Below, in pieces: positions 33,061 to 38,404 of a stretch of 64,000 bases of DNA (its first letter is position 1; each line of letters begins with the position of its first letter). Origin of the DNA: the human T2T-CHM13v2.0 reference genome, Homo sapiens. The stretch lies in NCBI RefSeq assembly GCF_009914755.1, contig NC_060927.1. One strand, given 5' to 3'. The notes below the pieces were generated by a model. It made no database searches and was not told the DNA's origin. It saw only the letters and a list, made by a program, of their open reading frames with translations. The translations under genes and the position numbers were made by a program.

Positions 33061-33803
33061 TGAAGGTCCACCATAGTACCTTCATAACTTCAAATCATAG
33101 GTTTAAACCTCTGTATCTTATCCCATCCATTTCAGTGTAGCTCTTGCCTGCCCACGCCATTTGCTTGATAAATATTTGTTCTGGGAGCTAGGTTTGCACA
33201 ACTGATCAAGCCAGGCAAAGCCTTATTTTCCCAAAGCCTATATTCCAGTGGGGAAAGACAGGCAATACATGGGATAAATGAATAAATGATATTCTCAGCA
33301 CAATTGCTTTTTGGAGGATAACTTGGTAAAATTTATGAAAATTTAAATTGTGCCTGTTCTCTGACTCTGCAAGCCTGCTGTCAAAAATTCATATATAATG
33401 ATATGTGTACAAGCCTGTTCTTTTTTTTTTTTTAATGAAATAATTTTTATTTGCTGTGATTATACATATTGACATTTGCACACTTTTTAAAACTTTTTAT
33501 TTGGAAAAAATTTAAATTTTATAGATAAGTTGCAAATATAAAAAGAGTGTAAAGAATACCCATACACCCTTTTCCCAGAAAGACTTATTGTTAGCATTTC
33601 ACACAATTGGCTTTTTGGTTTCTTTCTTTCCCCACCCACCTCACCCCATGGTTCTCTCTCTCCATACATGTTACATACACATAATTATATACTTAATTTT
33701 TTTCTTAGTAAATTGAAGGTGTCACATACATGATGGCCCTTTACTCCAAACATCAGTGCATATTTCCTAAGAATGTAGATATTCTCTTACTTAGCCCCAG
33801 TAG

Positions 33804-33990
33804 TTATATATATATATATATATAACATATATATGTTATATATATATATAACATATATGTTATATATATATATAACATATATATGTTATATATATATATA
33901 ACATATATATGTTATATATATATATAACATATATATGTTATATATATATATAACATATATATATAACTACTATATAACATATATATATAA
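33804..33990. repeat. (TA)n-based tandem repeat with recurring palindromic aacatatatatgtt units
   Basis: Direct reading of the sequence. Confidence 0.92.
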
Positions 33991-34775
33991 ATATGTATGT
34001 TAATTTTACTTTAATTTCTGGGGTACATGTGCAGAACGTGCAGGTTTGTTGCATAGCTATACGTGTGCCATGATGGTTTGCTCCACCTATTAACCCATCA
34101 ACTAGGTTCCCTCCCCTGGCCCCCCACCCCCCAACAGGCACTGGTGTGTTGTTCCCCTCCCTGTGTCCATGTGTTCTCATTGTTCAACTCCCACTTATGA
34201 GTGAGAACATCATATTTTGGGTACCATTATAAACTGTAAGTCACGCCTGATAATCTCATGTCTGAATACCCAAATATGTGATGTTTGGTTTTCTGTTCCT
34301 GTGTTAGTTTGCTGAGGATGATGGCTTCCAGCTTCTCCATGTTCCTGCAAAGGACATGATCTCATTCCTTTTTATGGCTGCACAGTATTCCATGGTGTAT
34401 ATGTGCAACATTTTCTTTATCCAGTTTATCATTGATGGGCATTTGGGTTGGCTCCATGTCTTTGCTATTGTAAATAGTCCTGCAATAAACATATGTGTGC
34501 ATGTGTCTTTATAGTAGAGTGATTTGTAATCCTTTGGGTATATACCCAGTAATGGGATTGCTGGGTCAGATGGTATTTCTGATTCTAGATCCTTGAGGAA
34601 TCACCACACTGTCTTCAGCAATGGTTGAACTAATTTACACTCCCACCAACAGTGTAAAAGTGTTCCTGTTTCTCCACCACCTCACCAGCATCTATTGTTT
34701 CTTGACTTTTTAATAATCGCCATTCTGACGGGTATGAAATGGTATCTCATTGTGGTTTTGATTTGCATTTCTCCA
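33990..34775 (-). mobile_element. Older L1PA (about L1PA7/8-like) 3' fragment inside the transduced segment, nested in an L1MC-like 3' end (~33480-33800 and 34780-35218)
   Basis: Typical L1PA 3'UTR (gggtacatgtgcagaacgtgcagg...) and ORF2 tail ([20 protein letters not shown]). Confidence 0.8.
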
Positions 34776-35270
34776 ACTTCAATATATTTAACACTGATAG
34801 AATACTTTTTTCTTATCTACCTTTCATACATCAGTATTGTCATTTGATCCAGTAATGTTCTTTATAGCATTTTCCTCTGTGGTACAGGATCCAGTCTGTC
34901 ATCAGGTATAGCATTTAAGTGCCATGTCTCTTTACCCACTTTCAATAGGGAATACTTCTACAACCTTTCTTTTTATTTTCTGACATTGACTTTTTTTTCT
35001 GACATTGACATTTTGGAAGAATGGATTACTGCCACACCCGCCCCCAACTTTTTTTTAATGAAACATTTCCCGTTTGGGGTTTTTTAGATAGCCTTTCGTG
35101 ATCACTTTCAAGTTATGCATTCTTCTTTGGAATGTTGCATAGGAGATGTTGTGTCCTTCTCAGGCTATCACATCTGAAAGCATATCACGTCCATCTGTCC
35201 TTCATTGGTGATGTTAACTTTTTTTTTTTCATTGATCTTTTTGCTTTTAATTTTTTTTTTTTTTTCGCTC

Positions 35271-36871
35271 TTTTTTTTTTTTTTTTATTATACTCTAAGT
35301 TTTAGGGTACATGTGCACATTGTGCAGGTTAGTTACATATGTATACATGTGCCATGCTGGTGCGCTGCACCCACTAATGTGTCATCTAGCATTAGGTATA
35401 TCTCCCAATGCTATCCCTCCCCCCTCCCCCGACCCCACCATAGTCCCCAGAGTGTGATATTCCCCTTCCTGTGTCCATGTGATGTCATTGTTCAATTCCC
35501 ACCTATGAGTGAGAATATGCGGTGTTTGGTTTTTTGTACTTGCAATAGTTTACTGAGAATGATGGTTTCCAATTTCATCCATGTCCCTACAAAGGATATG
35601 AACTCATCATTTTTTATGGCTGCATAGTATTCCATGGTGTATATGTGCCACATTTTCTTAATCCAGTCTATCATTGTTGGACATTTGGGTTGGTTCCAAG
35701 TCTTTGCTATTGTGAATAGTGCCGCAACAAACATACATGTGCATGTGTCTTTATAGCAGCATGATTTATACCCATTTGGGTATATACCCAGTAATGGGAT
35801 GGCTGGGTCAAATGGTATTTCTAGTTCTAGATCCCTGAGGAATCGCCACACTGACTTCCACAATGGTTGAACTAGTTTACAGTCCCACCAACAGTGTAAA
35901 AGTGTTCCTATTTCTCCACATCCTCTCCAGCACCTGTTGTTTCCTGACTTTTTCATGATTGCCATTCTAACTGGTGTGAGATGATATCTCATAGTGGTTT
36001 TGATTTGCATTTCTCTGATGGCCAGTGATGATGAGCATTTCTTCATGTGTTTTTTGGCTGCATAAATGTCTTCTTTTGAGAAGTGTCTGTTCATGTCCTT
36101 CGCCCACTTTTTGATGGGGTTGTTTGTTTTTTTCTTGTAAATTTGTTTGAGTTCATTGTAGATTCTGGATATTAGCCCTTTGTCAGATGAGTAGGTTGCG
36201 AAAATTTTCTCCCATTTTGTAGGTTGCCTGTTCACTCTGATGGTAGTTTCTTTTGCTGTGCAGAAGCTCTTTAGTTTAATTAGATCCCATTTGTCAATTT
36301 TGGCTTTTGTTGCCATTGCTTTTTGTGTTTTGGACATGAAGTCCTTGCCCACGCCTATGTCCTGAATGGTAATGCCTAGGTTTTCTTCTAGGGTTTTTAT
36401 GGTTTTAGGTTTAACGTTTAAATCTTTAATCCATCTTGAATTGATTTTTGTATAAGGTGTAAGGAAGGGATCCAGTTTCAGCTTTCTACATATGGCTAGC
36501 CAGTTTTCCCAGCACCGTTTATTAAATAGGGAATCCTTTCCCCATTGCTTGTTTTTCTCAGGTTTGTCAAAGATCAGATAGTTGTAGATATGCGGCATTA
36601 TTTCTGAGGGCTCTGTTCTGTTCCATTGATCTATATCTCTGTTTTGGTACCAGTACCATGCTGTTTTGGTTACTGTAGCCTTGTAGTATAGTTTGAAGTC
36701 AGGTAGTGTGATGCCTCCAGCTTTGTTCTTTTGGCTTAGGATTGACTTGGCAATGCGGGCTCTTTTTTGGTTCCATATGAACTTTAAAGTAGTTTTTTCC
36801 AATTCTGTGAAGAAAGTCATTGGTAGCTTGATGGGGATGGCATTGAATCTGTAAATTACCTTGGGCAGTAT
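35271..36871 (-). mobile_element. 5'-truncated L1HS-Ta (3' part of ORF2, 3'UTR and A-tail)
   Basis: Open 442-aa ORF2 C-terminus (35492-36820). The 3'UTR reads gatgacACAttagtggg (Ta diagnostic) and aaacttaGagtataat (human-specific G). Confidence 0.93.
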
Positions 36872-38404
36872 AAGCCTGTTCTTTATGGCATTATTTATAA
36901 CAGCAAATGTTTGAGAACAAAAATATATTGAAGGAGAATTGGGAAAATAAATTGTGGTGCCCAGAAACTAGAATTTATAGATGAATATGATGATACAGGT
37001 TGTAGCTGCTGGGTTTACAGCACTGTTTATAAAACAGGCAGAACCTGCCCTCATGGAGCACGTTGGAGTGCAGAAAGACAGATCGCACACCCTGAACGAA
37101 TCTGTGCTTTAGGCTGTGCCTAGGAGGCAGGAAGGGCTAGGGAGAGAAGCAAAGCTGGGGAGAGAGCTGAGGAGTGCTGGCAGAGGTGGCTTTTGTTTGT
37201 TTTTAACTGTTGTTGTATTTACCTCAAAAATTTTAAGTTATTAGTTTAAATCAATTAATTATTAACTAGAGTTTAATTTTAAATTATTTTAATAATTTTA
37301 ATTAAGTCGATTAATATTGATTGAATAACTTATAGTTGATTTAACTATAATTAATAAATAAATTTTTAATTTTCAAATTTTAGATTTACAAGCATTGCGG
37401 ATAGTGCAAACATTCCTGAATACCCCTCCCCAGCCTCCCCGACACATCACATAGCCAGGGTACATTCATCAAAACTAGGAAATGAAGATGGGTGCAGGAC
37501 TGCTGGCTCAACTCCAGGCTTGAACGGGCTTTCTCCAGTTTTTCCACAGAGGTGCCTTGCCGGTCCTAGGACATCGTTCAGGATTCTTCACTGCATTCTG
37601 TGGTCACATCTCATGGTCTCCTCCACTCTGCAACAGCTCCTTAGTCTTTCTTTGTCTTTTGTGCCCTTGACACTTCTGGGATGGAGTGGGGCTGGAGCTA
37701 AGTGAGAAGTATAGCAGGCAGTGAGGTCTGGGTGGGAAGCGTGGGGCAGACTCCTGTGGGACCTCATAGAGGTTTTCACTTTTCCTCCGAGGCAAACAGG
37801 GAGCCCCCAGGAAGCTCCTGAACAGAGGCAGGACATGATCAGACCGACTTTAACTGGGCCCTTCTGGCTGCTGTCCCTCAGGGAGCTGGAAAGGGTGAGG
37901 CCAGGTTGGGATGTCTGTGGATGATTCTGCAGTAGTCTAGGCAAGAGATCATGGGTGCTGTGGGCCACAGTGGGTGAGGAGCAGGGTCAAACTCCAGGTG
38001 TATTTTCAGGACAAAGCAGAAGACACCTAGGATTTTGACCCGCCTTGCTGTTGAGGTCTGCAGTCTTCCCCCAGCCTCCCCATCTCCTGTGCTGCTGGGG
38101 GCATTGTTGTCAAGGATGCTGACACCTGCATTCCAGACTTCATACATAGGATGATTCCAGAAACTGAAGCCTGCATGTCATGTTTACATAATGTAAATTT
38201 TATGCGAGTTTGACCATTTCATTGCCAAATGAAAGAGCTAGTTTCTGGTTACCATAATTTATCTACTCGATTCTTCATTGGAAAATGTTTAGATTGTTCA
38301 CAAATGTTTGCTGTCATAATGCTAAAAGAACAGACTTGTATATATACTTTTATATGTGGATTTTTAATATGATGGGTTTGCTAGGTCAAAGAAAGATTGC
38401 AGTC

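What the first reader, a model, noticed from the sequence alone, without database searches (positions are those of the whole stretch)
33411..36884. Hidden L1HS-Ta 3' transduction: ~1.8 kb of DNA from another locus carried in by a young L1
Seen: the 13-mer aagcctgttcttt abuts the L1 5' truncation (36872-36884), but its partner is not next to the L1 tail; it is 1.85 kb further out (33411-33423), running into a second poly(T). On the minus strand, AATAAA lies about 12 nt before that tail. The target CTTT/AT resembles the L1 endonuclease TTTT/AA site. Deleting the interval restores a continuous L1M motif (gatatgtgtacaagcctgttctttatggcattatttataacagcaaa). Established: these are the hallmarks of target-primed reverse transcription of a read-through L1 transcript, and ACA plus the 3' G mark the human-specific Ta subfamily. 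Inference: 33434-35218 is a copy of the flank of a recently active source L1, and the ~3.46-kb insertion may be polymorphic. Because the cargo is made of old repeats, masking would hide the event.
Basis: partly seen in the sequence, partly recalled or inferred. Interest (0 to 1): 0.85.

Follow-up and report, generated by a model that had tools for sequence, protein, structure and literature searches.

The report
L1 insertion carrying chromosome 5 DNA
A truncated human-specific L1 jumping gene in a KLF15 intron brought along about 1.8 kb of chromosome 5 DNA and a 21-base tag from chromosome 13, an ordinary, well-understood kind of event that here records three generations of one L1 lineage.

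Summary
The 13-mer AAGCCTGTTCTTT occurs exactly at 33411-33423 and 36872-36884 and brackets one 3,448-nt insertion on the minus strand. In L1 sense the order is: TSD, a 5'-truncated L1 (36871-35287), A16, GAGCG, A15, a 21-nt tag, A11, a 1.79-kb cargo, AATAAA, a short A tail, TSD.

The L1 piece encodes ORF2p residues 817-1275. It carries the Ta-1 diagnostic bases.

All three cargo parts searched have one other near-identical copy in CHM13, at C5:59574518-59576214 (99%). That site holds no L1. The cargo boundary falls exactly on a CTTT/AA endonuclease-type site.

The 21-nt tag has one other exact copy, at C13:41336425-41336445. It has an ATTAAA signal and a TTTT/AA site, and again no L1. This points to serial 3' transduction, chr13 to chr5 to chr3.

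The chr3 and chr5 cargo copies differ at 12 of 1,599 sites, with changes on both copies. The event is therefore probably millions of years old. Polymorphism and absence from apes could not be tested.

The mechanism is textbook, so interest is low to moderate.

The parts
33411..33423 (.). Target-site duplication, the copy at the 3' end of the insertion in L1 sense (AAAGAACAGGCTT on the minus strand)
   Evidence: Exact 13-mer pair. 0 of 100 shuffles gave 3 hits; sequence read.
33424..33433 (-). Terminal poly(A) tail of the insertion. 10 T on the plus strand; up to 5 could be templated by chr5, which has T5 at this point.
33446..33451 (-). AATAAA polyadenylation signal inside the cargo, 12 nt before the A run. 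It is also present in the chr5 source.
33434..35218 (-). Transduced segment copied from chr5. Homology runs 33429-35221 and equals C5:59574518-59576214; the boundaries are ambiguous by 5 T and 3 T.
   Evidence: 99% to chr5 only. 12 substitutions and no indels in 1,599 nt outside the TA array.
33805..33998 (.). TA-rich tandem array inside the cargo (period 26/50). It is 194 nt here and 98 nt in chr5, so its length changed after the copy was made.
35219..35229 (-). A11: inferred tail of the chr5 progenitor L1. 3 of the 11 may be the chr5-templated start of its TSD; 2 may be chr13-templated.
35230..35250 (-). 21-nt tag TTAAAAGCAAAAAGATCAATG. Inferred to be an earlier, very short 3' transduction from C13:41336425-41336445.
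   Evidence: One other exact copy in 3.1 Gb; 0 hits for the reversed-pattern control. The chr13 context has A7 before it, an ATTAAA signal and a TTTT/AA site.
35251..35265 (-). A15: inferred tail of the chr13 progenitor L1. Up to 7 are templated by the A7 of chr13.
35266..35270 (-). GAGCG interrupting the A tract. Origin unresolved and too short to trace.
35271..35286 (-). A16: the L1's own poly(A) tract, directly after ...GAGTATAAT
35287..36871 (-). 5'-truncated L1HS Ta-1 body: the C-terminal part of ORF2 (open frame 36871->35495, ORF2p residues 817-1275) plus the 3' UTR. There is no inversion. It lacks the promoter, ORF1, and the endonuclease and RT core.
   Evidence: E=0, 1044 bits to 8uw3_A residues 817-1275. 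99.05-99.24% to the 29 other copies fetched as loci; all 39 other full-length matches listed at 99%. ACA triplet plus T/G diagnostics.
36872..36884 (.). Target-site duplication, the copy at the 5' end of the insertion in L1 sense

Best explanation
One target-primed reverse transcription event inserted 3,448 nt into an intron of the long KLF15 transcripts, in the minus orientation.

The template was a read-through transcript of a full-length L1HS Ta-1 element that then sat on chromosome 5, at what is now C5:59576214/5. Transcription ran past that L1's own poly(A) signal. It continued through about 1.7 kb of chr5 flank and was polyadenylated at an AATAAA in that flank.

The L1 endonuclease nicked chr3 at CTTT/AT. 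Reverse transcription then copied the cargo, the internal A tracts and the last 1,585 nt of the L1 before stopping. The result is a dead, 5'-truncated copy bracketed by 13-bp TSDs.

The chr5 progenitor was itself the daughter of an L1 at C13:41336445. It had picked up a 21-nt flank tag there, ending 16 nt after an ATTAAA signal. The locus therefore records a lineage chr13 -> chr5 -> chr3.

Shown directly: the anatomy, the unique chr5 and chr13 matches, the empty sites, and the Ta-1 identity. Inferred: that L1s once sat at the two empty sites, and the age (roughly 1.5-6 million years, so probably fixed).
For: - TSD: an exact 13-bp TSD brackets the whole unit, and 0 of 100 shuffles gave 3 hits.
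- Single event: no inner TSD separates the L1 from the cargo. The L1 5' end touches one TSD and the cargo's A tail touches the other.
- Cargo origin: all three cargo parts searched (34779-35218, 34276-34778, 33434-33797) hit only C5:5957xxxx at 99%. The next best matches are 78% (one 64-nt match at 88%), 93% and <=88% on short stretches.
- Collinearity: the alignment is collinear over 1,793 nt, with no indels outside a TA array.
- Source context: in chr5 the segment is continuous with both flanks. Homology ends at gttaacttt|aatcag, which is CTTT/AA on the strand that would be nicked. At the other end, AATAAA lies 12 nt before the break.
- Tag: the 21-nt tag has 1 other exact copy in 3.1 Gb, and the reversed-pattern control gave 0 hits. 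That copy is preceded by A7 with TTTT/AA on the other strand, starts inside ATTAAA, and diverges exactly where the A11 begins.
- L1 identity: ORF2p residues 817-1275, E=0.
- Subfamily: ACA triplet with T and G at -394 and -391, which is Ta-1 by the PMC12350158 Methods rule. ACA marks Ta in PMC4866827.
- Polarity: of 6 polarisable differences, 2 are derived on chr3 and 4 on chr5. That is as expected if both copies diverged after the copying event.
Against: - Neither proposed source site holds an L1 in CHM13. There is no L1HS-like DNA in 17 kb of chr5 or in 3 kb of chr13, apart from the old L1 fragment inside the cargo. Both progenitors are inferred, not seen.
- 0.75% divergence between the cargo copies (12 of 1,599) is high for the youngest L1 subfamily. 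So are 9 private changes in 1,584 nt of L1 body.
- The chr3 nick site matches TTTT/AA at only 4 of 6 positions.
- The 21-nt tag is A-rich. By my own composition-based estimate about 0.007 chance matches are expected, but real genomes are richer in such words.
- GAGCG is unexplained.
- Absence from ape orthologues and the status in other human haplotypes were not testable here.
Confidence: 0.92

Rival explanations
1. Template switching rather than read-through. L1 reverse transcriptase started on an unrelated polyadenylated chr5 transcript, then jumped to the tail of an L1 mRNA. This would make a chimeric retrocopy without any L1 ever having sat on chr5.
For: No L1 is present at the chr5 or chr13 site in CHM13. 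A chimera of this kind would also have an internal A tract and a single outer TSD pair.
Against: The cargo boundary on the L1 side falls exactly on a CTTT/AA site in chr5. A switch point has no reason to fall there. The same pattern recurs at chr13, with TTTT/AA plus ATTAAA, so this model needs three RNAs and two jumps, each landing at such sites. Each inner piece ends a proper distance after a poly(A) signal and is followed by an A tract. Read-through of earlier insertions predicts this.
Confidence: 0.04
2. The 1.79-kb transduction from chr5 is real, but the 21-nt 'tag' is not a chr13 transduction. It would be tail heterogeneity or a chance match of an A-rich word.
For: The tag is short and A-rich (12 A of 21). 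GAGCG, in the same tail, shows that non-A inserts can occur here without a traceable source. Near-matches on chrX (2 mismatches over the 26-mer) and chr2 (1 mismatch) proved to be unrelated sequence.
Against: There is only one other exact copy in 3.1 Gb, and the reversed-pattern control found none. That copy has an A7 run before it, TTTT/AA on the other strand and an ATTAAA 16 nt before the break. The match ends exactly where the A11 starts.
Confidence: 0.2
3. Two independent events: a processed retrocopy of a chr5 transcript inserted first, and a truncated L1HS later landed precisely at its 5' end. A DNA-level duplication from chr5 is a variant of the same idea.
For: The cargo is more diverged from its source (0.75%) than one might expect for a Ta-1 event.
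Against: There is only one TSD pair and it spans both parts. No second TSD or target remnant lies between the L1 tail and the cargo. The L1 body is diverged to a similar degree: 12-15 of 1,584 to its closest relatives. A DNA duplication would not add an A tail after an AATAAA or create TSDs.
Confidence: 0.02

Closest known systems
L1 3' transduction (read-through of the weak L1 poly(A) signal; described in the passages of the Hoyt et al. preprint 10.1101/2021.07.12.451456 and of PMC12350158 that I read)
   Same: A second poly(A) lies downstream of the L1 tail. A poly(A) signal lies shortly before the terminal tail. The TSDs enclose the L1 plus the cargo. The cargo maps uniquely to another chromosome.
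   Different: At 1.79 kb the cargo is long. The 1000 Genomes short-read map reports 7-997 nt (abstract of PMC9311842), though that is a short-read limit. The source site is empty in this genome, so methods that require an L1 at the source would rate it low or miss it.
[quoted passage not shown]
   Same: Nested tags in the tail allow a parent-to-daughter order to be read. Members can be truncated. Some progenitors are non-reference or polymorphic.
   Different: This is a different lineage: none of the 14 listed loci is on chr5 or chr13, nor at this chr3 site. No sibling carrying either tag exists in CHM13. Both progenitors are missing here.
Catalogue of TE transductions in T2T-CHM13 (Hoyt et al. 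preprint; 183 top-confidence L1 3' events, passages read)
   Same: Same assembly, same class of event, and a TSD-based detection logic.
   Different: I could not see whether this locus is listed. bioRxiv supplements are closed, the journal version PMC9301658 is not held, and paper reading closed.

Membership tests
LINE-1 (L1) element | Encodes ORF2p | tested here: met
   The 459-aa open frame 36871->35495 matches residues 817-1275 of human LINE-1 ORF2p (8uw3_A) at E=0, 1044 bits. Pfam gave no family at E<=0.001 for this C-terminal part.
L1HS Ta subfamily | ACA triplet in the 3' UTR (ACG = pre-Ta, GAG = L1PA2 and older) | tested here: met
ACA at window 35380->35378 in the motif GATGACACATTAGTGGG. 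The rule is stated in PMC4866827 and in the Methods of PMC12350158.
L1HS Ta-1 subfamily | T and G at the two ORF2 positions 394 and 391 nt upstream of the triplet (Ta-0 has G and C) | tested here: met
   T at 35774 and G at 35771, as in 29 of 29 closest copies. The rule is in the PMC12350158 Methods: positions 5,535 and 5,538 against a triplet at 5,929. Offsets assume no indels; the 1,584-nt alignments had 0 gaps.
TPRT (endonuclease-dependent) L1 insertion | Target-site duplication, terminal poly(A), nick site resembling TTTT/AA, frequent 5' truncation | tested here: met
   13-bp exact TSD. An A run of 10-13 at the 3' end. CTTT/AT matches 4 of 6 positions. The copy is truncated at ORF2p residue 817. 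The consensus nick site itself is recalled.
L1 3' transduction | Non-L1 DNA lies between the L1's own tail and a second tail inside one TSD pair, preceded by a poly(A) signal, and maps uniquely to another locus | tested here: met
L1 3' transduction | A full-length L1 sits directly upstream of the cargo at the source locus | tested here: not met
   There is no L1 at the chr5 boundary in CHM13. The site reads as an empty CTTT/AA site. That is compatible with a lost or polymorphic progenitor, which only other haplotypes can show.
Human-specific or polymorphic insertion | Empty orthologous site in apes; presence/absence among humans | not testable with these tools
   No ape genome or human pangenome is held. 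The supplement of PMC12350158 is held only in part (cut when stored) and had 0 occurrences of 5q11.2, 13q14.11, 59575 or 59576. The 6 occurrences each of 41336 and 12905 that were shown as passages lay on chr20 and chr2, not at these sites.

The most novel reading that the evidence does not exclude
The tail of this dead L1 is a three-generation pedigree of one Ta-1 lineage (13q -> 5q -> 3q), and both full-length progenitors are absent from CHM13. One or both progenitors may still segregate as rare full-length L1s in living humans. In that case the tags (the 21-nt chr13 word and the chr5 flank) would identify an uncatalogued, possibly still active source lineage. The 0.75% divergence between cargo and source would also give a direct, L1-independent date for one of the earliest Ta-1 retrotranspositions.
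Probability: 0.2. Interest if true: 0.4.

Novelty: new member of a known kind. Interest (0 to 1): 0.25.

Why it matters
The mechanism is textbook, so the value is local and practical.

- The locus gives a clean worked example in which a source site is empty in the reference. Pipelines that require an L1 at the source would not call it with high confidence.
- The nested tags name two exact genomic positions (C5:59576214/5 and C13:41336445-52). Pangenome call sets can be queried there for surviving full-length Ta-1 progenitors.
- The cargo-versus-source divergence dates the event without relying on L1 consensus clocks.
- By the hub's annotation, the insertion lies in sense orientation in an intron of the long KLF15 transcripts. 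It also supplies the last 563 nt (plus the 13-nt TSD copy) of the terminal exon of the predicted lncRNA LOC105374088. No functional effect was tested.

Tried and rejected
- The 26-mer tag search gave a chrX site with 2 mismatches. It sits in an old L1-like stretch with no young L1 upstream and is rejected as chance.
- The 21-mer search gave a chr2 site with 1 mismatch. No L1 lies upstream; rejected.
- A full-text search for the 21-mer in papers found 0 papers.
- Searches for the Ta diagnostic positions by number returned only unrelated papers. The rule was found instead in the Methods of PMC12350158.
- 'KLF15' plus 'L1HS' found 2 papers. I saw them only as a listing; neither title concerns this insertion.
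- The transduction family of PMC6425141 is a different lineage.
- In the PMC12350158 supplement (one file, cut when stored) the terms 5q11.2, 13q14.11, 59575 and 59576 occurred 0 times. 41336 and 12905 occurred 6 times each, and the passages shown lay on chr20 and chr2. This is not evidence of absence.
- Pfam gave no family for the ORF2 C-terminal fragment.
- The left flank of the target found no paralogue, so the flanks could not be assigned to a repeat family that way.
I polarised with L1HS copies already held.
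Full report
**1. The observation**

The sequence was read. The 13-mer AAGCCTGTTCTTT is exact at 33411-33423 and 36872-36884. A third site has one mismatch. Dinucleotide shuffles expect 0.13 hits, and none of 100 shuffles gave three.

On the minus strand the order is as follows:

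| Element | Window coordinates |
|---|---|
| TSD | 36884->36872 |
| L1 sequence | 36871->35287 |
| A16 | 35286->35271 |
| GAGCG | 35270->35266 |
| A15 | 35265->35251 |
| TTAAAAGCAAAAAGATCAATG | 35250->35230 |
| A11 | 35229->35219 |
| Cargo, about 1.79 kb | 35218->33434 |
| AATAAA within the cargo | 33451->33446, 12 nt before the A run |
| A run | 33433->33424, continuing into the AAA of the TSD |
| TSD | 33423->33411 |

The insert between the TSDs is 3,448 nt. The pre-insertion target reads CTTT/AT on the plus strand.

**2. What the L1 part is**

The minus-strand frame is open from the truncation point to 35495. Its 459 residues match residues 817-1275 of human LINE-1 ORF2p (8uw3_A) at E=0. 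Pfam found nothing for this C-terminal piece.

The 1,584 nt have 4,589 first-look candidates in the genome. Forty were scored. Apart from the window's own copy, 39 match full-length at 99%, and one further partial match is 93%.

The copy has the ACA triplet, and T and G lie 394 and 391 nt upstream of it. The Methods of PMC12350158 define ACA as Ta and T/G at those positions as Ta-1. PMC4866827 gives ACA for Ta, ACG for pre-Ta and GAG for older families.

The copy lacks the 5' UTR, ORF1, the endonuclease and the RT core. It was dead on arrival.

**3. Where the cargo comes from**

The whole CHM13 assembly could be searched. Three cargo parts were each searched, and each has a single near-identical partner on chromosome 5.

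| Cargo part | Position relative to L1 | chr5 match | Next best |
|---|---|---|---|
| 34779-35218 | 440 nt nearest the L1 | C5:59575772-59576211, 99% | 78% (one 64-nt match at 88%) |
| 34276-34778 | middle | chr5, 99% | 93% (old L1 copies) |
| 33434-33797 | far end | chr5, 99% | <=88% on short stretches |

A global alignment is collinear from window 33429-35221 to C5:59574518-59576214. It shows 12 substitutions and no indels in the 1,599 nt outside a TA-rich array. The array is 194 nt here and 98 nt on chr5.

On chr5 the segment is continuous with unrelated flanks on both sides, with no A tail and no TSD. chr5 is therefore the source and chr3 the copy.

Homology ends at gttaacttt|aatcag, which is a CTTT/AA site on the strand that an L1 in minus orientation would nick. 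There is no L1HS-like DNA in the 17 kb of chr5 that I fetched, other than the old L1 fragment inside the cargo.

**4. A second, older tag**

The 21 nt between A15 and A11 have exactly one other exact copy in 3.1 Gb, at C13:41336425-41336445 on the minus strand. The reversed-pattern control gave 0 hits.

The chr13 context reads tagttt-AAAAAAA-TTAAAAGCAAAAAGATCAATG-aacctg. Four features fit a very short 3' transduction from an L1 once inserted there:
- An A7 run precedes the tag, with TTTT/AA on the other strand.
- ATTAAA begins one base before the tag.
- The match stops 16 nt after that signal.
- The stop falls exactly where the A11 begins in the window.

No L1 lies within 1.5 kb on either side in CHM13. 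Near-matches on chrX and chr2 are unrelated.

No other L1 in CHM13 carries either tag, so no siblings are visible. GAGCG remains unexplained.

**5. Mechanism**

The best reading is serial 3' transduction in three steps:
- An L1 at chr13 gave a daughter at chr5 that carried the 21-nt tag.
- Read-through from that daughter ended at the AATAAA about 1.7 kb downstream.
- This RNA was reverse-transcribed at chr3 by target-primed reverse transcription and truncated within ORF2.

The inner A tracts are the DNA-encoded tails of the two earlier insertions.

Template switching between three RNAs would not explain why both inner boundaries fall on endonuclease-type sites. Two nested insertions or a DNA duplication are excluded by the single outer TSD pair and the terminal A tail.

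**6. Age**

Twelve differences in 1,599 nt is 0.75% (Poisson 95% range about 6-21 differences; my calculation).

Six differences lie in an old L1 fragment and could be polarised with L1HS copies as outgroup. Two are derived on chr3 and four on chr5. Most are therefore not reverse-transcription errors. They accumulated on both copies, or reflect an allelic difference in the donor.

The L1 body differs from each of its 29 closest copies at 12-15 of 1,584 sites. Thirteen sites depart from the commonest base, and 9 of these are seen in none of the 29.

Taking commonly used neutral rates (recalled, 0.5-1 x 10^-9 per site per year), and allowing about two differences for donor-allele polymorphism, the insertion is roughly 1.5-6 million years old. 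That is old for Ta-1. It makes fixation more likely than polymorphism, but this is an inference. Neither ape orthologues nor other human haplotypes are available here.

**7. The old-L1 target claim**

The left flank has no other detectable copy in the genome.

The rebuilt empty site aligns through the junction to L1 ORF2 DNA with score 53. The halves alone score 25 and 37. Shuffles gave 30.7 +/- 4.0, and 1 of 500 reached 53.

**8. Comparison with the literature**

The Hoyt et al. preprint describes the mechanism and catalogues 183 top-confidence L1 3' transductions in CHM13 (passages).

PMC12350158 traces polymorphic transductions to 208 source L1s (passages). The held part of its supplement had no occurrence of the two cytobands or of the chr5 coordinates I searched. 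The occurrences of the other two number strings that were shown lay on other chromosomes, which is inconclusive.

PMC6425141 documents a comparable multi-generation family from a chr11 progenitor (section read). None of its 14 loci matches ours.

A full-text search for the 21-mer found no paper.

**9. Verdict**

It is a new instance of a well-known process. What this analysis adds:
- the exact source on chr5;
- the empty source site;
- a second-order tag from chr13;
- an age that argues against a very recent event.

Noticed in passing
L009 2995-3054 and 4204-4263 (C5:59573994-59574053 and 59575203-59575262); window 34210-34269: A 60-nt stretch occurs twice on chr5 at 100% identity, 1.2 kb apart. 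One copy interrupts an old L1 fragment between L1 positions that are otherwise contiguous. That copy was carried to chr3 inside the cargo. It looks like a small templated insertion that predates the transduction.
   Followed up: partly
window 32665-33986: By the hub's annotation, the terminal exon of the predicted lncRNA LOC105374088 (+ strand) crosses the TSD at 33411. It runs 563 nt into the transduced chr5 DNA and ends in the TA-rich array. If the model is real, its 3' end is supplied by the insertion.
   Followed up: no
window 33805-33998 vs L009 3895-3992: The TA-rich array (period 26/50) is 194 nt in the chr3 copy and 98 nt at the chr5 source, about 3.5 extra 26-nt units. It shows how fast this array changes length.
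   Followed up: partly
window 35266-35270: GAGCG sits between two pure A tracts in the L1 tail. It is too short to trace. It could be a still older micro-transduction or a tail error.
   Followed up: no
window 42572-48061: The hub's list shows a 5.5-kb masked repeat about 6 kb from this insertion, possibly another long L1. It was not examined.
   Followed up: no
window 38325-38337 (minus strand): A one-mismatch copy of the TSD 13-mer (AAGTCTGTTCTTT), 1.4 kb from the insertion. It was treated as chance and its context was not read.
   Followed up: no
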